Shown here: one piece after another, positions 1 through 31,617 of the stretch | Numbering within the stretch: position 1 is the stretch's first letter | Layout: the number at the start of each line of letters is the position of its first letter | DNA from: Promethearchaeota archaeon | Lineage (GTDB): Archaea; Asgardarchaeota; Odinarchaeia; Odinarchaeales; JBHLKK01 | Assembly (NCBI GenBank): GCA_048939465.1 | Contig: JBHLPL010000009.1 | Coordinates: forward strand, 308-32,307 | Length of the DNA: 32,000 nt | Reading direction: 5' to 3' | Made by a program: the position numbers and the translations under genes | Notes under the pieces: generated by a model | Seen by the model: only the letters and a program-made list of their open reading frames with translations | Databases searched by the model: none | Told to the model about the DNA's origin: nothing

Positions 1-1
1 G

Positions 2-1042
2 ACGGGCGATAAAGGAATCTCTCAGAAGGAACAAACGAGAATACTGCAGGAATTTAGGTCAGGAGAGACTAACGTCCTTGTGGCTACAAGTGTTGCTGAG
101 GAAGGTTTGGATATTAGTGAATGTGATCTGGTTGTTTTCTATGATTGTGTACCAAGCTCAATTCGGGCAATTCAGCGTAGAGGACGTACGGGAAGGAGAA
201 TGACGGGGCACGTGTACATTCTAATAACTCGAGGCACGAGGGACGAGGCATATTATTGGTCCGCATTCCATAAGGAAAGAAGGATGTATGGCATATTGCG
301 CGGTATGAAGAAAACATCTAGAGAGCTTTCTAAAGAGAGAGGAGAACAACATCCTTTGGAACGATTCATAAGAGATGGTGTAGCTGAAACTGGTCTCAGC
401 ATTGTGACTGATTATAGAGAGATGAATTCACCAGTTGTCAAGGAATTGGCCCGTCTAAAGATCGGAGTAAAACCCGCGCAGTTGGCGGTTGCAGATTATA
501 TAGTATCGGAAGATGTAGCAATAGAACGAAAGACTACGGAAGATTTCCTTCAATCATTGGTTGATCAGCGGCTGTTTAGACAATTGAAAGACATGATACA
601 AGAATATGGGAATTCACTCCTAATAATAGAGGGCGAAAAACTATATGGGCTGAGAGCAATCAATCCGAATGCTATTAGAGGAGCTCTTGCTAGCATAGCA
701 GTCGATTTCCGAATGCCAATACTCTGGACAAAAACACCAGTCGAGACCGCAAGACTGTTATCGGTTATCGCCCGGAGGGAGCAAATAGAACGAGACAAGG
801 AGATCTCTATTAAGGGCGAGAAAGCGCCGCTAACGATAGGTGAGCAGCAAGAGTACTTGTTATCAAGATTGCCGGGAATCAATAGAAAACTTGCAGGGAG
901 ATTACTAGTGCATTTTGGAAGCCCAGAACAGGTTTTTGCTGCTACTGTTGATGAACTCCAAGAAGTTCACGGCATAGGAAAGAAGACTGCAGAGAGAATA
1001 CGCCAGATACTAACGTCGAAATATGCTGATGGAAAGTCATGA
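2..1042 (+). CDS. hef: Hef/FANCM-like helicase-nuclease, 5'-truncated by the window edge (SF2 helicase C-terminus + ERCC4/XPF nuclease + HhH)
   Basis: Frame open from base 2; helicase motifs V/VI (VATSVAEEGLDI, QRRGRTGR), ERCC4 motif (DY..ERKT..DF), C-terminal HhH (PGI..., VHGIGKKTA). Confidence 0.92.
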   Translation, partial: TGDKGISQKEQTRILQEFRSGETNVLVATSVAEEGLDISECDLVVFYDCVPSSIRAIQRRGRTGRRMTGHVYILITRGTRDEAYYWSAFHKERRMYGILRGMKKTSRELSKERGEQHPLERFIRDGVAETGLSIVTDYREMNSPVVKELARLKIGVKPAQLAVADYIVSEDVAIERKTTEDFLQSLVDQRLFRQLKDMIQEYGNSLLIIEGEKLYGLRAINPNAIRGALASIAVDFRMPILWTKTPVETARLLSVIARREQIERDKEISIKGEKAPLTIGEQQEYLLSRLPGINRKLAGRLLVHFGSPEQVFAATVDELQEVHGIGKKTAERIRQILTSKYADGKS

Positions 1043-1384
1043 TTTTTGAATGCGTCTTATTTTTTCAAGAATATCCAGCAGTTCGTTCAGAAGTTTTGCA
1101 ATCGAGCGGAGCTTTTCAGGATCTTTCTCCTCCTCCATTCTTTTATTGAGATCCTGAAGTTTGGAGGACACGATTTCATCCATCCGAGGGAGCAGAACGC
1201 TTGAAACAACAGAGCTGCTTTCCTCTCCCTCTTTTACGATCAGCACCTTTTTGTCACAAGTAGGACAGTAAATATCTCCGTGTACTTTGAATAAAGGAGA
1301 AGCGCATACAGGGCAAGAATTCGAGAGCATAGTTGCGCCAGACAGAAGTAATTCTACCATCTTGTTGGTTTTCTTCTTTTTCAT
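1037..1384 (-). CDS. UPF0148 / Sjogren autoantigen p27-like zinc-ribbon protein
   Basis: LLLSGATMLSNSCPVCASPLF...YCPTC double CxxC pattern followed by a coiled-coil-like tail. Confidence 0.8.
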   Translation of the reverse strand: MKKKKTNKMVELLLSGATMLSNSCPVCASPLFKVHGDIYCPTCDKKVLIVKEGEESSSVVSSVLLPRMDEIVSSKLQDLNKRMEEEKDPEKLRSIAKLLNELLDILEKIRRIQKS

Positions 1385-1466
1385 TTCTCGTCACCATATA
1401 AGAACGTTTAAGAATATCTTTAATTACTTTTTCATACAACTCAAATTTAAGCGAGGTCGTATAACA

Positions 1467-1770
1467 ATGGATGAGGAAGCGGACGAGAAGGTAAATCAAG
1501 CAATGACAGTATTAGGCATGATAGCTGAAGATACCTCTGTCCCCAGAAACATCAGACGTGCAGCAAATGAGGCTACTGATGCACTTCAAGACTCCAAGAT
1601 TGAAAGTATGGCTGTGAGGGCATCAAATGCGATATCGATTCTCGACGAGGTATCTCAAGATCCAATCCGTTAAGAGTGTCCTCTTGGCGGGGATAAACTG
1701 CCCCTTACACGCCAGAACAAAAATATGGAATGTAGTGAGCATACTTGAAACCGTCAAAGACTATGAATAG
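1467..1770 (+). CDS. UPF0147 family protein, intron-containing: join(1467..1665,1697..1770), 90 aa
   Basis: Exon 1 has EDTSVPRNIRRAA...RASNAISILDEVSQDP. The unspliced frame stops at TAA 1671. Removing 1666-1696 gives [26 protein letters not shown], the expected family C-terminus. SD-like GAGGT upstream. Confidence 0.9.
1666..1696 (+). other. 31-nt BHB intron in UPF0147 mRNA
   Basis: Central helix ATCC(1660-63)/GGAT(1691-94); 3-nt bulges AAT(1664-66) and AAA(1695-97); intron stem CCGTTAAGAG/CTCTTGGCGG (10 bp, 2 GU) with TGTC loop. Cutting after the 2nd nt of each bulge restores the frame. Confidence 0.88.
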
Positions 1771-1970
1771 CCTTGAGAAATTCAGCTCCTCTCTATTTAA
1801 TACTACCTGAGATTTCTTTTATTCCTTCTTGTTTCATATCAATAGTCCAGGATTTCACTATCAAGTAGCTGGACTTCGCACCGCGGAATCAATTTCACTT
1901 CAGAAGAATTACCTGATTCCGAGAAAAGAATTAATAAATGGCTAATTAGAAAGTACTCTCGGAATGCTGT

Positions 1971-2152
1971 GCCGGGGTAGCCAAGTGGTCTACGGCGCTG
2001 GCCTCGAGAGCAGCTAACATAAAAGGAAGAATACATAAAAGACAACGGAAATCCTTTGGGACAGATTGAACAAGAAAGTCAGTGACGCAGTAGCGTCTCG
2101 CGGGTTCGAATCGGCGCTACATTACGCCGCGAGAATCCTGCCCCCGGCGCCA
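1971..2152 (+). tRNA. tRNA-Ser(CGA) with two introns (37/38: 2009-2076, 68 nt; 59/60: 2111-2135, 25 nt), CCA encoded
   Basis: Acceptor GCCGGGG/CCCCGGC; D arm GCC/GGC; anticodon stem CTGGC/GTCAG with CT-CGA-GA; long variable arm GACGC-AGTA-GCGTC; T arm GCGGG-TTCGAAT-CCTGC after removing a well-formed BHB intron (H TTCG/CGAG with one GU, bulges AAT/AAT, stem CGGCG/CGCCG). Confidence 0.93.
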
Positions 2153-2231
2153 CTTAATACAACCCATGTTACCGATCAATTAGTGCATCAATCAACACGA
2201 GTCGGGATTGGAGGGTTGGTGTTGAGGCTGT

Positions 2232-2547
2232 GTAGACTGCCCCCCGCTTTCGCAGGGAGCCTTCCATCAGAGGTTGAGTATGGTGCACCGCACCACGCAA
2301 CCCCACCGTCAACAGGACGAAAGAGCCTGCCTACAGGGACTCCAGCTCTGGTAAACTGGGAAAAGACGTTGTACCCTCGAACTTCCCGCACCTTATCTCA
2401 TCAATCCCCCCCGCGGGTCATTAACCGTTTCCACATGGGAGAAAAGCGTGCCTTTAGCCCTATTCGAATATATTGCAAGAATGTAGAATGTACTTGGAGA
2501 CGGTTCAATCACTCTCCGCCCTTCCGGACGGAGTTTCCTTGAGGTGG
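2232..2547. repeat. por-associated ~300-nt element, copy C (upstream of porG; most diverged)
   Basis: Begins GTAGACTGCCCC like copy B; shares GGTC...ACCGTTTCC...GCCTTTAG and the terminal hairpin + CTTGAGGTGGTTCA with copy A. Confidence 0.7.
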
Positions 2548-2552
2548 TTCAG

Positions 2553-3113
2553 GTGTATGAAATTCGCTGGCATGGTCGAGGAGGACAAGGTGCAGTAACA
2601 GCATCCTATGTTCTCGTAGATGCCGCATATAGAGACGGCTATGAAGGCGTTCAGTCTTTTCCTTTTTTCGGTGCTGAGAGGAGAGGGGCACCAGTTAAAG
2701 CGTTTACTAGAATTTCAAAGACGATGATATATTCCCGCTGCCAAATTTATGAGCCTGATGCGATCATAGTTTTGGATCCTACTTTGCTGGATATTGTCGA
2801 TGTTACGGAAGGATTGAAAAGAGGCGGAGTCATTGTAGCCAATGCAAATGAGGTTCCAAAGAAATGGAGAAACAAGAATTGGAAGATATACATAGTTGAT
2901 GCTACTGCAATAGCGCTAGAAGTCGGCTTGATCGTAGCGGGATCCCCTGTATTAAACACGCCGATGCTGGGCGCATTTGCTAAAGCAACGGGATTAGTAA
3001 GGCTGGAGAGAATCAAGGAAGCGATAAGCAATAAGTGGAAAGGCAAGGCCGGAGAAAGAAATATAAAAGCGGCAGAATTAGCATATGAACAGTGTAAATT
3101 GGTAGTATCTTAG
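2553..3113 (+). CDS. porG: 2-oxoacid (pyruvate-type):ferredoxin oxidoreductase gamma subunit
   Basis: YEIRWHGRGGQGAVTAS...FPFFGAERRGAPV motif; GTG start at 2553 after SD GAGGTG (2541-46). Confidence 0.93.
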   Translation: MYEIRWHGRGGQGAVTASYVLVDAAYRDGYEGVQSFPFFGAERRGAPVKAFTRISKTMIYSRCQIYEPDAIIVLDPTLLDIVDVTEGLKRGGVIVANANEVPKKWRNKNWKIYIVDATAIALEVGLIVAGSPVLNTPMLGAFAKATGLVRLERIKEAISNKWKGKAGERNIKAAELAYEQCKLVVS

Positions 3114-3129
3114 GCTAGGGGGACTTATT

Positions 3130-3462
3130 CTGAATTCTGGAACTCGGCAAAAGAGTCTGGTTCTTGGAAAGACTGCTAAGACCAAGAAAAAGAAAGCAGG
3201 AATTAGACCTGACGCAATACCTTTATCAAAGCCTGGCAGGGGATCTTACGGCAGAACCGGAGATTGGAGAACCTTCAAGCCGGTAATGGATAAAGAAAAA
3301 TGCAACAAATGTATGCTCTGTTGGCTTTATTGTCCAGAAGGAGTAATAGATCAAGGGAAAGAAGGATATCCGAAAATCGATTATATGTATTGTAAAGGTT
3401 GTGGCATTTGTGCTCAAGAATGCCCATCCAAGTGCATAGAAATGGTGAGAGAGGAAAAGTAA
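3130..3462 (+). CDS. porD: Oxidoreductase delta subunit (2x[4Fe-4S] ferredoxin-like); start codon uncertain; not in the ORF track
   Basis: Translates ...TGDWRTFKPVMDKEKCNKCMLCWLYCPEG...DYMYCKGCGICAQECP...EEK*. Frame is open from 3106 but has no ATG/GTG/TTG before the conserved core; CTG 3130 follows a GGGGG SD-like run. Confidence 0.85.
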   Translation: MNSGTRQKSLVLGKTAKTKKKKAGIRPDAIPLSKPGRGSYGRTGDWRTFKPVMDKEKCNKCMLCWLYCPEGVIDQGKEGYPKIDYMYCKGCGICAQECPSKCIEMVREEK

Positions 3463-3753
3463 ACTATTCCTCTCCTGTCGAAGGAGCTTATGACTATGCT
3501 AGACCTCAATTCCCGAGCGGGCTTTGGTTCCGGTACACGCCAAATCAGGGGGCAGTTTACATCGTCCCAGCCCACTAGTCCCCATATAACGTCGGGGTTT
3601 ATAGTTTATTTCACACATCTTCCCCACAGGTCGGTGACCGTTTCCGCGTCAGAGAGGGGTGCGCCTTTAGATATTTCAGCAAATATATAACAAACGTATT
3701 TGAAGGCCACTAAATTCCTCTCCTCCCTTTCGGACGGATTCTCCTTGAGGTGG
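3459..3753. repeat. por-associated ~300-nt element, copy A (porD-porA spacer)
   Basis: Shares AAGGAG(C/T)TTATGACTATG, GCCAAATCAGGGG, CGTCCCAGCCCA, AACGTATTT and TGAGGTGGTT with copy B; collinear. Confidence 0.85.
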
Positions 3754-3758
3754 TTCAA

Positions 3759-4970
3759 ATGAAAACACAGATTATGACGGGAAATACGGCTGCAGCGTAT
3801 GCTGCCAAATATGCGAGAGCACAAGTTATCGCTGCTTATCCCATAACACCACAAACCACAATCGTAGAAGCGATAGCGAGTCTCATAGATGAAGGTGAAA
3901 TGGAAGCAGAATACATTCGTGTCGAGAGTGAACACAGTGCTATGGCAGCTTGCATTGGTGCTGCCGCTACTGGAGCCAGAGCATTTACTGCAACATCATC
4001 CCATGGCCTTACTTTGATGCATGAAATGCTTCATTGGGCTAGCGGATCTAGGTTGCCCATTGTTATGGCAAATGTCAATCGAGCCATGGGACCGCCGTGG
4101 AATATATGGCCCGATCACAATGATAGCATATCACAAAGAGATGTTGGATGGATACAATTCTATGTCGAAAACAATCAAGAGGTATTCGATACGATCTTAC
4201 AGTGCTACCGGATTTCTGAAAACCAAGAAGTTCTGTTGCCCTCCATGGTGAACCTCGACGGCTTTATTATTTCTCACACCTCTGCCCCGCTAAGCTTACC
4301 TGGTCAAGAAGAGGTCGATGAATTCATACCGGACTATAACCCAAATCCGGAGAAACAACTTGTCATGGATACTCACAAACCAGTGACACATGGCAACATC
4401 ATTATGGTTAACAGTCCAGACGATTGGTATTATGAGTATCGTTATATGATTCACGAAGCTATGATGAACGCCAAGAAGGTCATTCAAGAAGTTGTAGAGG
4501 AGTTTCACAGAAGATTCGGTAGGTCACACGGGGGATTGGTTGAAGAGTATAAATGTAAAGATGCAAACCTGATTTTAGTATCCATGGGAACTATTGCAAG
4601 CCAGGCTAAAGCCGCTATCGATGAGTTGAGACAGGAAGGATACAAAGTGGGAGCTCTCAAGCTAAGGGTTTTTAGACCATTTCCTAGGGAGGAGTTCCAA
4701 AGACTGGCAGATAGAGTCGAAGCCCTTGCGGTGATAGACAGGAACATATCTTTTGGAATGGGGGGTGCAGCTTCCGCAGAGATTAAGGCTGCATTATACA
4801 ATCACAAGAAACACCCATTAATCTTGGAGAACATCGCAGGAATAGGAGGGAGAGACGTGACATCCTCCGATATTAAAAAGATGGTTCTGGGTGCATTAGA
4901 AGTGCTAGAAACTGGTAAAACAGGAGAGGATATTAATTGGCATGGCCTCCGAGTGGGAGAAATGAAGTAG
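3759..4970 (+). CDS. porA: Oxidoreductase alpha subunit
   Basis: MTGNTAAAYAAK...YPITPQT...ESEHSAM...ATSSHGL...NRAM motifs; ATG 3759 after SD GAGGTG. Confidence 0.95.
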   Translation: MKTQIMTGNTAAAYAAKYARAQVIAAYPITPQTTIVEAIASLIDEGEMEAEYIRVESEHSAMAACIGAAATGARAFTATSSHGLTLMHEMLHWASGSRLPIVMANVNRAMGPPWNIWPDHNDSISQRDVGWIQFYVENNQEVFDTILQCYRISENQEVLLPSMVNLDGFIISHTSAPLSLPGQEEVDEFIPDYNPNPEKQLVMDTHKPVTHGNIIMVNSPDDWYYEYRYMIHEAMMNAKKVIQEVVEEFHRRFGRSHGGLVEEYKCKDANLILVSMGTIASQAKAAIDELRQEGYKVGALKLRVFRPFPREEFQRLADRVEALAVIDRNISFGMGGAASAEIKAALYNHKKHPLILENIAGIGGRDVTSSDIKKMVLGALEVLETGKTGEDINWHGLRVGEMK

Positions 4971-5259
4971 ACTGCCCCTCCGATAAGAAAGGAGTTTATG
5001 ACTATGTTTGACTACAATTTCTTCAGGGGGTCCGGTTGCATCACATGCCAAATCAGGGGACGGTTTATAGCGTCCCAGCCCAGTGACCCGCACACAGCGT
5101 CGAGGTATGTAGTCTCTTTCACCCATGCTCCTCATCCGTTATTAGCCGCTTCCTCCCTCCGAGAGCGTACCTCTGAATCCATTAGCACGGTTGAAACGAA
5201 CGTATTTAAGGACCGCCCAATTGATCCCTTACTTTTCGGAAAGAAACTTCGTGAGGTGG
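4967..5259. repeat. por-associated ~300-nt element, copy B (porA-porB spacer)
   Basis: Collinear homology with copy A; like copy A it starts at the upstream gene's stop codon (AAG TAG ACT vs AAG TAA ACT). Confidence 0.85.
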
Positions 5260-5263
5260 TTTG

Positions 5264-6169
5264 ATGAACTCAATATTAGGACTTCCGAGGAAGGAACTCG
5301 TGTATAAGGGAAATAGCGCGTGTATGGGTTGTAGCGCTGTATTGGCAATGAGACATGTGTTAAAAGCTCTAGGTGAGCAAACTGTCATGATCATACCGGC
5401 AGGCTGTAGCACAATAATTCAGGGTCTCTATCCAAAAACTGCTATTGGCGTTCCTCTGCTCAACATCGCTTTCGAGGCTGCTGCAGCTGCGGCCTCCGGC
5501 ATTACAGCAGGATTTAGAGCTCAAGGAAAGAAGGACATTACTGTGGTAGCGTGGGCAGGAGATGGAGGGACATTTGATATTGGACTTCAGGCATTAAGTG
5601 GTGCGGCAGAACGTCAGACGAATATGATTTACATATGTTATGACAACGAGGCATACATGAATACGGGAATTCAACGTAGCGGCGCAACCCCCTACGGAGC
5701 CATAACGACCACGACGCCGGGAGGAAAGAGACTACCTAAAAAGGACCTTGATGCGATTGTCTTGGCTCACGACGTACCTTATTTGGCAACTGCCAACATA
5801 GGATACCCACAGGACCTCTATAGGAAAGTCAAAAAAGCGAAAGAAAAGGAAGGATTCAGATTCATCCACATACTAAGTCCTTGCCCCCCAGGATGGAGGT
5901 TTGATTCAAGTCTTACAGTCACCCTGGCGAAGTTGGCGGTTCAGACTGGCATATGGGTACTGTTTGAGGTGGAAGACGGCAAATTCAGACTTTCAGGACC
6001 AAGCAAGAGACTGCTGGACCCGAATAAAAGAAAGCCTGTCGAAGATTATCTGAAGCTTCAGGGAAGATTCTCAGAGCTCACAGGTGAGGATGTGAAAGAG
6101 ATAAATAGAGAGATCGTGGAAAACTGGCAAGAAATAAACAGAAAAGTCTCTCGAGCAGAAGGAGTGTAG
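5264..6169 (+). CDS. porB: Oxidoreductase beta subunit (TPP-binding)
   Basis: ACMGC, AGC, GDGG...DIGLQALSG...YDNEAYMNTGIQRS TPP-binding motif, CPPGW. Confidence 0.95.
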   Translation: MNSILGLPRKELVYKGNSACMGCSAVLAMRHVLKALGEQTVMIIPAGCSTIIQGLYPKTAIGVPLLNIAFEAAAAAASGITAGFRAQGKKDITVVAWAGDGGTFDIGLQALSGAAERQTNMIYICYDNEAYMNTGIQRSGATPYGAITTTTPGGKRLPKKDLDAIVLAHDVPYLATANIGYPQDLYRKVKKAKEKEGFRFIHILSPCPPGWRFDSSLTVTLAKLAVQTGIWVLFEVEDGKFRLSGPSKRLLDPNKRKPVEDYLKLQGRFSELTGEDVKEINREIVENWQEINRKVSRAEGV

Positions 6170-6381
6170 AAAGAGATTCAGAGACGAAATGATATACTAC
6201 GTTATAGGACAAAGTAAGATGTTGTATGCCGACGTATTACGTTCTACGATTGCAGGAGGAGTACTGAGGGGTATTGGTTTCTTTACGCAAGATTTTTAAG
6301 AAGATACAATAAATAAGAATCACCTCTTTAGAGGTTTTCAACTTCAAGTATAAAATCAGAGCCAAAATGGGGTGAAGTCTA

Positions 6382-6684
6382 ATGACAGAGAACACAATCT
6401 TTGTTGGAAACAAACCAGTTATGAACTATGTTTTGGCATGCGTAACTCAGCTGAATCAAACCGACATGGAAGAAATAGTCATTAAAGCAAGAGGACGGGC
6501 GATTAGTCGCGCAGTTGATGTTGCAGAGATACTCAGAAATCGATTCATGACCAATGTTGACGTAAAAGACATAAAGATCAGCACTGAGCAAATTAATACC
6601 GCAGAGGGCGGAACAGCAAACGTCAGTGCAGTCGAGATCTCGCTGGGTATGAAAGCTGCCAAACCTAGTAAAAAGAAGAAGTAG
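6382..6684 (+). CDS. albA: DNA/RNA-binding protein Alba
   Basis: [12 protein letters not shown]...[16 protein letters not shown] signature; Lys-rich C-terminal tail. Confidence 0.96.
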
Positions 6685-6709
6685 AAATACCTTCTAAGGC
6701 AAAGGGAAC

Positions 6710-6729
6710 TCTTTTTTCTTTTTCTTTTT
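6710..6729 (+). terminator. Oligo-T archaeal terminator-like tract after alba
   Basis: TCTTTTTTCTTTTTCTTTTT ~25 nt downstream of the stop, in the gap between convergent genes. Confidence 0.5.
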
Positions 6730-6775
6730 AGTTGTATGACCTTTCAACACAAATATGAAGACGATGGGAATTTTG

Positions 6776-7336
6776 TTACCCAAGAACGTATCCAATTTGT
6801 TTGACAAGTTCACGACGTTCTTTGCGTTGATCGTCTGTTTCTATTCTTTTCACAGATTGTCCGTCCACAAAGCCCAATACTGCACGGCCTTCCACACCAT
6901 TGATGCCCACTTCTGCGACTATTACCTTGCAGCGATTCGCAGTTGCGCCGTAGACTATCGCGACATGTGGTAATAGCTTGATACTATTTAGAACATTAAT
7001 CGGCCATGCTCCCTGAATCATGATTACAAATACATGACTTGCCCCGATATTTCTGCAGTTTTCAGCCGTCAATTGCTCTAGTTCGGGGTCGTTACTATTG
7101 ACACGGGTAAGTCTGGGATCTGCTTCATTCATTGCACAAGCAAACTTCACATCACCAGTAGTTACTCCCGGAACTGACATCTGAATGGTCCGGAAGAGGT
7201 CGTCAACAAGTTTTACTGAGAAATTGGGGTCCCTCTACCTCTTGTATTGATCTTAAAGGGATTTCCCCTGTCCGACAATTATCTGATGCTCGGGTTCCTT
7301 CTTAATGTCTATTGAAATGAGTTTTATTTCGCTCAA
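6776..7336 (-). CDS. Adenosine-specific kinase family (DUF355-like) protein, intron-containing: complement(join(6776..7223,7263..7336)), 173 aa
   Basis: SD AAGGAGG then TTG 7336: MSEIKLISIDIKKEPEHQIIVGQG|NFSVKLVDDLFRTIQMSVPG...NEADPRL...GAWPINVLNSIK...ATAN...GRAVLGFVDG...RRELVKQIGY. The ORF track captures only the exon 2 part. Confidence 0.88.
7224..7262 (-). other. 39-nt BHB intron in adenosine-specific kinase family mRNA
   Basis: Minus strand: helix GGGG/CCCC, bulges AAA and AAT, intron stem TCCCTTTA/TAGAGGGA (8 bp, 1 GU). Contains in-frame TAA and TAG; splicing yields GQGNFS. Confidence 0.9.
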
Positions 7337-7501
7337 CTCTTGACCTCCTTTTCAATATCATGGATTAAGACATTATTTCAATCAGACTGTAATAAATCCT
7401 TTTGAAATCCTTTTTATCTAGGTAAACCTTTTTCCCTAATATTCAGATGAATGAGGAGACTGATTGCATTCATAAGTGCCAAAAAAGAATATAAGAAGGA
7501 A

Positions 7502-8593
7502 TTACAGTGCTAATGTTCCTCGCTTGATAACAGGCTTTCCATCTAGCTCAATAGTTGGTTGAGTGGCGGTGATTTGTTGATACCAACTAGTTTCATTCCT
7601 TCCATGCTGTGCTTTATTGTCGCCTATCGCTAACGTAACTGTTCCTAGGACGATTTCGTTCTCAATAAAACCGGTTTTGGCCTTTGGGTTCAAACCCAGC
7701 AGGAACAATCCTAGTCTGTCTTTGTCGCCTTTTGCGTTTTTCCAGCTTGATTTCATTGTTTCCACATTCTTGCTTCCTTCAAAGGACACTAGTCTTCCGT
7801 CTTTGAATTCCCAGGAAATACCATGGACTAGCTTGGCTGCAAACGCCTCAGGAATGTCTGAGACAAATCTCCCATTTACGCTTGCTTCCGAAGGTGCTAA
7901 TCCAACAACCCCACCAGGCAAAATGACTTCTAGATTCCCCTTTCTAACATCCTCTTCATCGACTATACCATCATGGATGAAGGTAGGTCTATCTTCCAAG
8001 CTGAAGTTTATGTCCGTTCCCGTTGGGGTCGTGATACGAACCGTCTTCGCCTTTTCCAAGATATTGCCGATCTTGGTTCCAAGTCTCTTGATCTCCTCAT
8101 ACTCCACATCTAAAGAACTAATAGCGCTCTTCTTCCATTCGTCATAGTTGAATCCGTAGACTTTTGCTCTTTGAGGCGTAACTAGTCCTAAACGAATATG
8201 TGCTGTCCGAACTCTTTTTTTAATCCACTTATCACGGTAGGACGTCCCTCCTTCGGAAGACGCAGCCCACCTTTCAGGATCAACTTGCTTCATCCTCTCG
8301 GGATTCTCAGGACCCCATACGTTGATTGAGGCAGTCTGTGCATCCAATAACGCCAGTTCAAGGGGGTTGGACATTTTCAGATAATCTAAGGGAAGGTTGA
8401 GCATATAATCATAGAAAGTCTCGTCTGTATCAATCTGCAAAATCGCTTGTGCTCCAGTTCTTCTGCACTCCAACACAAAGGCCTTTGCCAAATCAAGATT
8501 ATGAGGGTATGCATAGATTACAACATTATCCTCTTTCCCTATTCTTAGACAGGTATTGATGACTCGCTTCACAAATGAAGGTACTTCCAACAT
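7502..8593 (-). CDS. Aminopeptidase (M29/thermophilic metalloprotease-like)
   Basis: GTDINFSLEDR..DG...NLEVILPGG, LGLNP, HLA/TLAIGDN...HG-type C-terminal metal-binding region; 363 aa. Confidence 0.8.
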   Translation of the reverse strand: MLEVPSFVKRVINTCLRIGKEDNVVIYAYPHNLDLAKAFVLECRRTGAQAILQIDTDETFYDYMLNLPLDYLKMSNPLELALLDAQTASINVWGPENPERMKQVDPERWAASSEGGTSYRDKWIKKRVRTAHIRLGLVTPQRAKVYGFNYDEWKKSAISSLDVEYEEIKRLGTKIGNILEKAKTVRITTPTGTDINFSLEDRPTFIHDGIVDEEDVRKGNLEVILPGGVVGLAPSEASVNGRFVSDIPEAFAAKLVHGISWEFKDGRLVSFEGSKNVETMKSSWKNAKGDKDRLGLFLLGLNPKAKTGFIENEIVLGTVTLAIGDNKAQHGRNETSWYQQITATQPTIELDGKPVIKRGTLAL

Positions 8594-31041: not shown

Positions 31042-31617
31042 CTAAAGGTTGACTTGCGCTGCAAAATAATATGTCGTTTCTCCTTGTCTATCTACAACAC
31101 CGAGAACGAGCCTTTTCCTAGAACTTGTTGCCGCTTTTATTATCTTCTCCAGGCTTGACAATTCTAAAGGTACTCCTTCAACCACAACATGTATGAGGTA
31201 TTTCGCCACGTCTTCATTCAAAACCGCTCCTCTTTCATAAACCCGAAAATCAACTCCGCTCCCATACCCAAGACGTACTATGTATCCTCTGCTTCGCAGA
31301 TCCCGATACACAAGATATTTCGTCCATATCCTTGGGTCCACTTCTAATGTGCTTTTTAGGATACCCTGGAAGTCAAGCTCCTGTTTATTCTCATCAAAAA
31401 CTCTAAGCCTTCTCCGTTCCATAAGCAGTAGAGCCTCTACTATTTCAAGATTCAGCTTGTCCTCCTCCAGGATGCTTCCATAATAGCCAGCCTCATAAGT
31501 TGATGTTGCCTTTTCACCACTCACAATTACGCTATTGTCAACTAATACGCCTTCAACGATCTCTTCCTCTTCCAACTTTTTCCCCGCCTGAAGGTCTTGT
31601 TTCATCTTTGGAACCAC
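31042..31617 (-). CDS. endA: tRNA-splicing endonuclease subunit (probably structural beta-type)
   Basis: GYYG...L..VEALLL, YLVYRDLRSRGY, G.DFRVY, RKRLVLGVVD...TYY. The catalytic His expected before YL is absent (EDVAKYL). Confidence 0.85.
   Translation of the reverse strand: MVPKMKQDLQAGKKLEEEEIVEGVLVDNSVIVSGEKATSTYEAGYYGSILEEDKLNLEIVEALLLMERRRLRVFDENKQELDFQGILKSTLEVDPRIWTKYLVYRDLRSRGYIVRLGYGSGVDFRVYERGAVLNEDVAKYLIHVVVEGVPLELSSLEKIIKAATSSRKRLVLGVVDRQGETTYYFAAQVNL

What the first reader, a model, noticed from the sequence alone, without database searches (positions are those of the whole stretch)
1467..7336. High local density of EndA-type introns suggests genome-wide tRNA-style mRNA splicing
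Seen: four introns in 6 kb (2 mRNA, 2 tRNA). The three well-formed BHBs all cut at AA|N bulges, and both mRNA introns split an Asn codon (CCA A|AC; GGG AA|T). Both mRNA introns carry premature stops when retained. Inference: many apparent pseudogenes in this lineage may be spliced genes. EndA/RtcB activity could then gate protein expression, and introns may spread by reverse splicing into AA-bulge-compatible sites. Whether this is already described for this lineage cannot be checked here.
Basis: inference. Interest (0 to 1): 0.85.

Follow-up and report, generated by a model that had tools for sequence, protein, structure and literature searches.

The report
tRNA-type introns in Asgard protein genes
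Two protein genes and one tRNA gene in this stretch of an uncultured Asgard archaeon are interrupted by tiny hairpin introns of the kind cut out by the tRNA-splicing enzyme, and at least 13 more such introns sit in other protein genes of the genome, a kind of messenger-RNA splicing published so far for only one archaeal coding gene (cbf5).

Summary
Observation confirmed. The window holds four bulge-helix-bulge (BHB) introns:
- 31 nt in a UPF0147 gene
- 39 nt in an adenosine-specific-kinase gene
- 68 nt and 25 nt in a tRNA-Ser(CGA) that ARAGORN and Rfam both miss

Cutting two bases into each bulge restores both reading frames and a normal tRNA.

The kinase intron sits at the same codon in all seven genomes of the order. 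Its lengths are 39, 34, 34, 31, 30, 32 and 27 nt, covering all three frame classes, and its stems covary. Only exact excision explains this.

Using a whole relative genome as protein reference, I listed gene breaks without regard to structure. Eleven of 18 short breaks had correct BHB geometry, against 0 of 18 for a mirror-image decoy.

In total I verified 15 introns in 12 genes, including kae1, aIF5B, three in SAHH and two in an amidase. That is about 1-2% of genes. Two EndA subunit genes and RtcB are present.

Not supported:
- AA|N is only a tendency.
- The shared Asn codon is a by-product of that tendency.
- Gating and reverse splicing remain speculation.

This scan has noted the same phenomenon in other Asgard genomes.

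The parts
1467..1665 (+). UPF0147 gene, exon 1 (66 codons plus the first base of the Asn codon)
   Evidence: Pfam PF03685 profile 2-61, E 1.3e-21. Translation.
1666..1696 (+). 31-nt BHB intron in the UPF0147 mRNA. Central helix ATCC/GGAT, bulges AA|T and AA|A, 10-bp inner stem with loop TGTC.
   Evidence: The MFE fold equals the BHB. Same site and length in the two congeneric genomes, with a covarying stem. A 29-nt intron sits at the same codon in G012.
1697..1770 (+). UPF0147 gene, exon 2, including the stop codon
   Evidence: Pfam PF03685 profile 64-81. It reads in the +1 frame relative to exon 1.
1971..2152 (+). tRNA-Ser(CGA) gene with two introns and an encoded CCA
   Evidence: The spliced 89-nt product is called tRNA-Ser(cga) by ARAGORN. 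The unspliced gene is missed by ARAGORN and Rfam.
2009..2076 (+). 68-nt tRNA intron at the canonical position 37/38. Relaxed BHB: central CTCG/CAAG with one mismatch, bulges AG|A and AA|A.
   Evidence: and the sequence.
2111..2135 (+). 25-nt tRNA intron at position 59/60 in the T-loop. Full hBHBh': central TTCG/CGAG, bulges AA|T and AA|T, inner stem CGGCG/CGCCG, and the T-stem as outer helix.
7263..7336 (-). Adenosine-specific kinase family gene, exon 1 (TTG start at 7336 with GGAGGT upstream; 24 codons plus AA)
   Evidence: Conserved in 7 genomes of the order. Changes between G000 and G001 are mostly synonymous.
7224..7262 (-). 39-nt BHB intron in the kinase mRNA. Central helix GGGG/CCCC, bulges AA|A and AA|T, 8-bp inner stem, in-frame TAA and TAG.
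   Evidence: The MFE fold equals the BHB. Same codon in 7 genomes with lengths 39/34/34/31/30/32/27 and unrelated covarying stems. The alignment to the intron-less G011 orthologue has a gap of exactly 13 residues.
6776..7223 (-). Adenosine-specific kinase family gene, exon 2, including the stop codon
   Evidence: Pfam PF04008 profile 19-153 of 154, E 1.2e-41.
31042..31617 (-). One of the two tRNA-splicing endonuclease (EndA) subunit genes of the genome. The other is on contig C90.
   Evidence: PF01974 match at G000:C139:31376-31636, E 1.5e-21. 191-aa ORF.

Best explanation
These are genuine archaeal bulge-helix-bulge introns lying inside protein-coding transcripts as well as in tRNAs. In the pre-mRNA, the last four exon bases before the cut pair with the 3' end of the intron. 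This helix is flanked by two 3-nt bulges, and a stem-loop made of intron sequence sits beneath it. The heterotetrameric (alpha-beta)2 splicing endonuclease EndA cuts two bases into each bulge, and RtcB joins the exons. That removes the stop codons or the frame shift, so the full protein can be made.

Shown here:
- the structures
- exact restoration of frame and domain
- conservation with covariation
- intron lengths in all three frame classes
- enrichment of BHB geometry at independently defined gene breaks
- presence of the enzyme genes

Inferred: that cutting and joining really take place on these mRNAs in the cell.

The phenomenon is genome-wide but sparse. There are at least 15 introns in 12 genes, about 1-2% of genes, several in essential single-copy genes. 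It is shared across the Odinarchaeia-related order.
For: Window introns:
- Splicing restores a 90-aa UPF0147 protein and a 173-aa kinase.
- The Pfam profile is contiguous across the junction, 2-61 | 64-81.
- The MFE folds are exactly BHB.

Comparative evidence:
- The kinase intron is at the same codon in G000-G006. Lengths are 39, 34, 34, 31, 30, 32 and 27 nt (L mod 3 = 0,1,1,1,0,2,0).
- Its central helix is kept, with one G-U variant. Its inner stems are completely different between the two families.
- More distant relatives have an uninterrupted gene, with open frames of 165-200 aa.
- UPF0147 has a 31-nt intron at DPN|C in the genus, with compensatory stem changes.
- G012, in another family, has a 29-nt intron at the same codon, with the central helix changed ATCC/GGAT to ACCC/GGGT.
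- The four Odinarchaeum-like genomes lack that intron. They carry a 27-nt BHB intron ten codons downstream.
- G011, G024, G034 and G040 are intron-less.

Genome-wide evidence:
- ORFs of the whole G011 genome were laid on G000 by tblastn, giving 865 testable loci.
- With intron length fixed by the alignment, 11 of 18 short breaks have BHB geometry. The mirror-geometry decoy scores 0 of 18. The repeat gave 10/19 against 3/19 weak ones.
- Pfam contiguity: TsaD 12-61 | 64-169; amidase 7-104 | 106-153 | 155-252; AdoHcyase 187-220 followed by AdoHcyase_NAD 1-110.
- Splicing restores conserved motifs: DTGGSIR, ERGITIK, and CX3CX2C of a radical SAM enzyme.

Machinery and copy number:
- Two EndA paralogues and two RtcB genes are present.
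- Both window genes are single-copy in the genome.
- 18 of 22 full-length tRNA hits are longer than an intron-free tRNA of their class, so the cell depends heavily on this pathway.
Against: - There is no transcript evidence for this genome.
- The large protein collection holds only the truncated 68-aa unspliced product for this genus, and no spliced form.
- The outer helices of both window introns are only 1-2 bp, a relaxed motif. Several other introns have one mismatch in the central helix.
- A structure-only scan of the genome shows enrichment over the decoy only in its extreme tail (11 against 4; 5 against 0).
- All genomes are metagenome bins.
Confidence: 0.9

Rival explanations
1. The interrupted genes are decaying pseudogenes, or the inserts are assembly or binning errors, and the hairpins are accidental.
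For: The genome is a 152-contig bin. One other break I found is a run of N. Public annotation calls truncated proteins.
Against: The same insert sites recur in seven independently assembled genomes, with intact, selectively constrained exons and compensatory stem changes. Essential single-copy genes (kae1, aIF5B) are affected. BHB geometry scores 11/18 against 0/18 for the decoy.
Confidence: 0.02
2. The inserts are skipped by the ribosome, through programmed translational bypassing as in T4 gene 60 or yeast mitochondrial 'byp' elements, or through programmed frameshifting, rather than removed from the RNA.
For: The inserts are short (19-39 nt), hairpin-forming, have a stop just after the take-off point, and lie inside coding sequence. 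Byp elements share these features (established knowledge).
Against: There are no matching take-off and landing codons at either window site (sequence). What is conserved is a 4-bp helix with two 3-nt bulges, identical to the tRNA introns of the same genome. A tRNA gene 200 nt away uses the same motif, and no ribosome reads a tRNA. Intron length varies freely, while the BHB register alone predicts the right junction.
Confidence: 0.03
3. EndA cuts at these sites but the pieces are not rejoined. The BHB would then be an mRNA-cleavage or decay switch, or would give separately translated protein fragments.
For: In Haloferax, EndA also removes a BHB element from a 5' UTR, with an effect on expression (PMC7714728).
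Against: Second exons lack start codons and ribosome-binding sites. The breaks fall inside compact motifs and domains (CX3CX2C, DTGGSIR, the GTPase switch region). RtcB is present. Exon junctions are kept in frame through evolution, which cleavage alone would not require.
Confidence: 0.04

Closest known systems
BHB intron in the cbf5 (aCBF5 pseudouridine synthase) pre-mRNA of Crenarchaeota (Watanabe 2002; Yoshinari 2006; Yokobori 2009, PMC2738675)
   Same: A short BHB intron lies inside a protein-coding sequence. It is removed by the tRNA-splicing endonuclease of the hetero-oligomeric type, and it was gained and lost among relatives.
   Different: A different phylum (Asgard) and different genes. 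Here there are at least 12 genes, some with two or three introns. cbf5 itself is uninterrupted in its TruB_N domain in this genome. A 2020 paper states that cbf5 is the only reported BHB intron in an archaeal mRNA besides its own 5'-UTR case (PMC7714728).
Non-canonical and multiple tRNA introns of Thermoproteales and of Asgard archaea (PMC5829648; bioRxiv 10.64898/2026.10.13.758758)
   Same: The same motif and the same (alpha-beta)2 enzyme with broad specificity. The tRNA-Ser in the window has introns at 37/38 and 59/60, and most tRNA genes of the genome are interrupted.
   Different: Those studies treat tRNA genes only. The preprint text contains no 'mRNA' and no 'Odin', and names Jordiarchaeia and Atabeyarchaeia as the intron-rich classes.
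BHB element in the 5' UTR of HVO_1309 of Haloferax volcanii (PMC7714728)
   Same: EndA acts on an mRNA, and this was confirmed in vivo and in vitro.
   Different: That intron lies in the untranslated leader and does not interrupt the reading frame.
IRE1/RtcB splicing of XBP1/HAC1 mRNA in eukaryotes
   Same: A protein-only, spliceosome-independent excision of a short intron from an mRNA. Hairpin-loop cut sites are used, RtcB-type ligation follows, and the reading frame changes.
   Different: The nuclease is IRE1, not the EndA/TSEN family. It affects a single regulated target and has a different cut-site motif.

Membership tests
Archaeal bulge-helix-bulge intron (EndA substrate) | A 4-bp helix flanked by two 3-nt bulges on opposite strands at the exon-intron borders | tested here: met
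   UPF0147: ATCC/GGAT with AAT and AAA. Kinase: GGGG/CCCC with AAA and AAT. tRNA 59/60: TTCG/CGAG with AAT and AAT. The 68-nt tRNA intron has one mismatch in the helix.
Archaeal bulge-helix-bulge intron (EndA substrate) | Cutting at the symmetric bulge positions and joining the exons gives a functional product | tested here: met
   Open frames and contiguous Pfam profiles. A tRNA-Ser is recognised after splicing.
Archaeal bulge-helix-bulge intron (EndA substrate) | Flanking helices h and h' (strict hBHBh' form) | tested here: inconclusive
   Inner helices are 8-10 bp. Outer helices are only 1-2 bp in both mRNA introns, a relaxed form of the motif. The outer helix is full in the tRNA 59/60 intron.
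Archaeal bulge-helix-bulge intron (EndA substrate) | Structure kept by compensatory change in relatives | tested here: met
   Stems are wholly different between the two families, while pairing and register are kept. The central pair changes T-A to C-G in G012.
Archaeal bulge-helix-bulge intron (EndA substrate) | Splicing endonuclease of a broad-specificity type and an RtcB ligase encoded in the genome | tested here: met
   Two PF01974 paralogues, consistent with the (alpha-beta)2 type reported for Asgard (PMC5829648). Two RtcB genes. The L1 loop and catalytic residues were not examined.
Archaeal bulge-helix-bulge intron (EndA substrate) | Excision and ligation observed in RNA | not testable with these tools
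No spliced-form protein was found in the large protein collection.
cbf5-type pre-mRNA intron of Crenarchaeota | The intron lies in the cbf5 gene | tested here: not met
   The TruB_N domain is matched 1-149 in one 345-aa open frame without stops. The introns here are in other genes.
Programmed translational bypass element | Matching take-off and landing codons flanking the gap | tested here: not met
   The flanks are CCA A / AC TGC and GGG AA / T TTC. There is no repeated codon at the two ends.
Group I / group II self-splicing intron | A ribozyme core of hundreds of bases | tested here: not met
   The introns are 19-68 nt. There is no Rfam family match in the window.

The most novel reading that the evidence does not exclude
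EndA/RtcB-dependent introns in protein-coding genes are an old, lineage-wide property of Asgard archaea. They would be gained repeatedly at favoured sites: the same UPF0147 codon is occupied in two separate families, and a neighbouring codon in a third group. Genes in pieces and obligatory protein-only mRNA splicing would then have existed in the archaeal relatives of eukaryotes before the spliceosome. Expression of essential genes (kae1, aIF5B, GatA-like amidase, SAHH) would be coupled to the tRNA-splicing machinery.
Probability: 0.3. Interest if true: 0.9.

Novelty: new variant of a known kind. Interest (0 to 1): 0.8.

Why it matters
The papers I could search describe tRNA-type splicing of an archaeal coding sequence for a single gene, cbf5 (PMC2738675; PMC7714728).

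- Scale. A genome with at least 15 such introns in 12 genes, conserved across an order of Asgard archaea, turns a curiosity into a system. The affected genes include essential translation and tRNA-modification genes, and some carry two or three introns.
- Annotation. These genes are currently called as truncated or split proteins. The public UPF0147 entries of this group are 68, 74 and 77 aa instead of about 90 aa. [quoted passage not shown]
- Evolution. The system gives a tractable case for asking how introns arrive at coding sites. It also allows asking whether protein-only mRNA splicing by the ancestors of TSEN and RTCB preceded spliceosomal splicing.

Tried and rejected
1. Structure-only genome scan. 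I required a strict BHB (4 paired central positions, at least 4 contiguous inner pairs, intron 14-200 nt), compared it with a mirror-geometry decoy, and filtered by open reading frame and hexamer coding score.
- Totals were equal: 301,252 real against 300,981 mirror.
- After the filters only the extreme tail was enriched: score >=30, 11 against 4; score >=34, 5 against 0.
- The background is ordinary gene boundaries.
- Many real introns have a mismatch or a 3-bp inner stem, so this approach has little power. I replaced it with the homology-first census.

2. Restricting to AA/AA bulges gave 35 real against 23 mirror. This was not useful, because AA is not a rule.

3. A filter requiring no start codon in exon 2 still left 422-439 decoy hits.

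4. Constrained-fold energies do not separate real from mirror geometry, because the shared hairpin dominates the energy. Geometry at a fixed intron length does separate them.

5. Top structural candidates not supported by Pfam:
- C75(-), 37 nt
- C2(-), 32 nt: DUF3795 is complete within 'exon 2'
- C150(+), 41 nt: the HTH domain is complete
- several others with no family match

6. Weak homology breaks of 9-15 nt, and the breaks at C56, C2, C40, C84 and C119, are no better than the decoy and are not counted.

7. Automatic tRNA intron calling by splicing candidate BHBs and running ARAGORN was too permissive to curate.

9. A search for a spliced-form UPF0147 protein in the 5.8-billion-protein collection found only the truncated 68-aa form at 95% identity.

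10. An all-against-all 8-mer comparison of intron sequences found nothing shared.
Full report
**What is in the window.**

The window is G000:C139:308-32307 of a 1.96-Mb, 152-contig bin with 43% G+C. Region 1-8400 holds these features:
- the end of a Hef-like helicase/nuclease gene
- a small UPF0147 gene
- a tRNA gene
- a four-gene pyruvate:ferredoxin oxidoreductase operon
- an Alba gene
- on the minus strand, a gene of the adenosine-specific kinase family (PF04008)

ARAGORN and Rfam at gathering thresholds report nothing in the whole window.

**The two protein genes.**

*UPF0147.* The frame opens at 1467 and runs into TAA after ...SQDPIR. The conserved C-terminal third ([19 protein letters not shown]) follows in the +1 frame. 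Removing 1666-1696 (31 nt) joins CCA A to AC TGC and gives a 90-aa protein. Pfam PF03685 matches profile positions 2-61 in exon 1 and 64-81 in exon 2. With the junction codon and the next residue, the profile is continuous.

*Kinase.* On the minus strand, a TTG at 7336 preceded by GGAGGT opens 24 codons ending ...IIVGQG. Then come 39 nt with TAA and TAG in frame. Then comes NFSVKLVDDL..., which matches PF04008 from profile position 19 to 153. Removing 7262-7224 gives a 173-aa protein.

*Structure.* Folded without any constraint, each site gives as its minimum-energy structure a 4-bp helix, a 3-nt bulge and an 8- or 10-bp stem-loop, with the 3' bulge unpaired. That is the bulge-helix-bulge motif. 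The helix is made of the last exon bases and the 3' end of the intron. Cutting two bases into each bulge gives exactly the junctions required by the protein alignments.

**The tRNA.**

Bases 1971-2152 carry an acceptor stem, D-arm, long variable arm and T-arm of a class II tRNA, interrupted twice. Removing 2009-2076 (68 nt, after position 37) and 2111-2135 (25 nt, between 59 and 60) gives an 89-nt molecule. ARAGORN draws it as tRNA-Ser(cga) with encoded CCA.

The T-loop intron has a full hBHBh' motif: TTCG/CGAG, AA|T twice, a 5-bp inner stem, and the T-stem as outer helix. The long intron has a relaxed motif with one mismatch.

**Comparative test.**

*Lineage.* The closest records are labelled 'Candidatus Hodarchaeota archaeon DZ1B.307' (88% identity, same genus by the tool's kinship) and 'Candidatus Odinarchaeia archaeon RPA3' (same order). 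The lineage is therefore an Asgard archaeon of the order that holds Odinarchaeia.

*Kinase intron.* It lies at the same GQG|N codon in all seven genomes of the order.
- Its length is 39, 34, 34, 31, 30, 32 and 27 nt. All three residues modulo 3 occur, so exon 2 is in a different frame relative to exon 1 in different genomes.
- The central helix GGGG/CCCC is kept, once as GGGG/CTCC.
- The inner stem is TCCCTTTA/TAGAGGGA or CCTCTCTA/TAGGGAGG in one family and TTTTAACCCG/CGGGTTAAAA or variants in the other.
- Exon 1 differs between G000 and G001 mostly at synonymous positions (sequence).
- Same-phylum relatives further away have one open frame of 165-200 aa.
- The tblastn alignment to the intron-less G011 orthologue has a gap of exactly 13 residues over the intron.

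*UPF0147 intron.*
- The three genomes of the genus share the 31-nt intron, with compensatory stem changes.
- G012, in a different family, has a 29-nt intron at the same codon, with central helix ACCC/GGGT.
- The four Odinarchaeum-like genomes have no intron there. They have a 27-nt BHB intron ten codons downstream (GCAC aa|a ... GTGT aa|a).
- G011, G024, G034 and G040 are uninterrupted.

Only precise excision at the BHB explains these patterns. Read-through, frameshifting and decay do not.

**Is it genome-wide?**

*Structure-only scan.* It had little power. A strict BHB pattern and its mirror image occur equally often. The mirror has the bulge on the wrong side of the 4-bp helix and the same chance frequency. 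After open-frame and coding-potential filters, only the extreme tail is enriched: 11 against 4, and 5 against 0.

*Homology-first census.* I therefore listed gene breaks without looking at structure.
- I fetched the whole genome of G011, 2.1 Mb, which is intron-less at both window genes.
- I laid its ORFs on G000 with tblastn.
- I collected places where one query continues in another frame, or across in-frame stops, after a short extra piece of DNA.
- 865 loci (734 kb) were testable.
- With intron length fixed by the alignment, 11 of 18 short breaks had at least 3 of 4 central pairs plus at least 3 stacked inner pairs in the correct geometry. The mirror geometry scored 0 of 18.
- The repeat with the full reference gave 10 of 19 against 3 of 19. 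All three decoy hits were minimal.

*Pfam and motif support.*
- Kae1/TsaD: profile 12-61 | 64-169, 25-nt intron.
- GatA-like amidase: profile 7-104 | 106-153 | 155-252, introns of 32 and 29 nt. The second splits the DTGGSIR signature.
- S-adenosylhomocysteine hydrolase: three introns of 32, 30 and 22 nt.
- Class III aminotransferase: 30 nt.
- EF-2-like GTPase: 31 nt, restoring ERGITIK.
- aIF5B: 29 nt.
- CitG-like gene: 19 nt.
- MMR_HSR1 GTPase: 24 nt.
- Radical SAM gene: a 30-nt intron splits the CX3CX2C motif.
- mtaD-like amidohydrolase: 27 nt, CATG ac|a ... CATG at|t. I read this from the segment printed. A 39-nt alternative also forms a BHB.

With the two window genes, that makes 15 introns in 12 genes, plus one probable case on C116. 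This is about 1-2% of testable genes. It is a lower bound. Short exons are missed, and G011 appears to share some sites, since kae1, aIF5B and one SAHH intron were not found with it.

- AA|N is a preference, not a rule. The first two bases of the 5' bulge are AA in 5 of the 15 introns. Those of the 3' bulge are AA in 9 and A-purine in 14. tRNA introns of this genome also use ag|a, ca|a, ga|a and gt|a.
- The shared Asn codon follows from AA plus T or C. Other junctions fall in other codons.
- The introns share no 8-mer, so nothing points to a recently spreading element.
- Occupation of the same UPF0147 codon in two families could be old inheritance with loss, or repeated gain. I could not decide between these.
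- Gating of expression by EndA or RtcB is untested.

**Machinery.**

- Two genes with the tRNA-intron endonuclease catalytic-like domain are present. One is in this very window (31042-31617, minus). The other is on C90 and carries the His-containing motif of a catalytic subunit, by my reading.
- This fits the (alpha-beta)2 type with broad specificity reported for Asgard archaea (PMC5829648).
- Two RtcB genes are present.
- Eighteen of 22 full-length tRNA hits are longer than an intron-free tRNA of their class.

**Literature.**

- The cbf5 intron of Crenarchaeota is the published case (PMC2738675).
- A 2020 study states that, apart from its own 5'-UTR intron, cbf5 is the only BHB intron reported in an archaeal mRNA (PMC7714728).
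- An October 2026 preprint describes heavily interrupted Asgard tRNA genes but does not mention mRNA.
- Searches for Asgard or Odinarchaeia with mRNA introns found nothing else.
- cbf5 itself is uninterrupted here.

**Earlier notes of this scan.** They list several of the same genes in this genome, and similar introns in other Asgard genomes. Some of those report RNA-derived spliced contigs. I used them as leads and re-tested most of them. I did not check the RNA claims.

**Limits.**

- There are no transcript data for this organism.
- The large protein collection holds only the truncated product.
- Splicing is therefore inferred, though from several independent lines of evidence.

Noticed in passing
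window 2153-2556, 3463-3758, 4971-5263: Three diverged copies of a roughly 293-nt ORF-less element lie directly upstream of porG, porA and porB. Each ends in ...CGGA..CCTTGAGGTGGTT before the start codon. blastn finds about 20 or more further copies across the genome at 67-77% identity. Its function is unknown. It is not a BHB intron by inspection.
   Followed up: partly
G000:C31:2961-5708 (locus L119): One of the two RtcB genes matches the profile at 1-57 and 45-426 in a single 973-aa open frame, with about 1.4 kb between the two matches. This looks like an intein-type insertion in the RNA ligase.
   Followed up: no
G000:C118:16-479 and G000:C24 (minus strand, near the contig end): The S-adenosylhomocysteine hydrolase gene is spread over two contig ends and carries three BHB introns (32, 30 and 22 nt). 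This is the most interrupted protein gene I saw.
   Followed up: partly
proteins P0001, P0004, P0005, P0024, P0025: Public gene calls for UPF0147 in this genus and in Odinarchaeia are truncated exactly at the intron (68, 74, 75 and 77 aa). Close relatives (P0002, P0003, P0031; 87-89 aa) are full length. Intron presence therefore varies among near relatives, and annotation pipelines mis-call these genes.
   Followed up: partly
locus L030 (G012:C86): A genome of another Asgard family carries a 29-nt BHB intron at exactly the same UPF0147 codon as this genus, while the Odinarchaeum-like genomes between them lack it. This is either ancient retention with loss, or a favoured insertion site.
   Followed up: partly
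G000:C69:39744-40085 (locus L155): cbf5, the one archaeal gene with a published BHB mRNA intron, has an uninterrupted TruB_N domain in a 345-aa open frame here.
   Followed up: yes
G000, whole genome: Rfam tRNA finds only 24 hits above cut-off, and ARAGORN with intron mode about 17. Most hits are 90-140 nt long. Many tRNA genes with two or more, or non-canonical, introns are probably still undetected, like the tRNA-Ser of this window.
   Followed up: partly
G000:C116, minus strand (strand index about 20838): A probable further 31-nt intron in a strongly conserved gene. It has central helix GGGC/GCCT, bulges at|a and aa|a, and a 4-bp outer helix, but a poor inner stem. The gene was not identified.
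   Followed up: no
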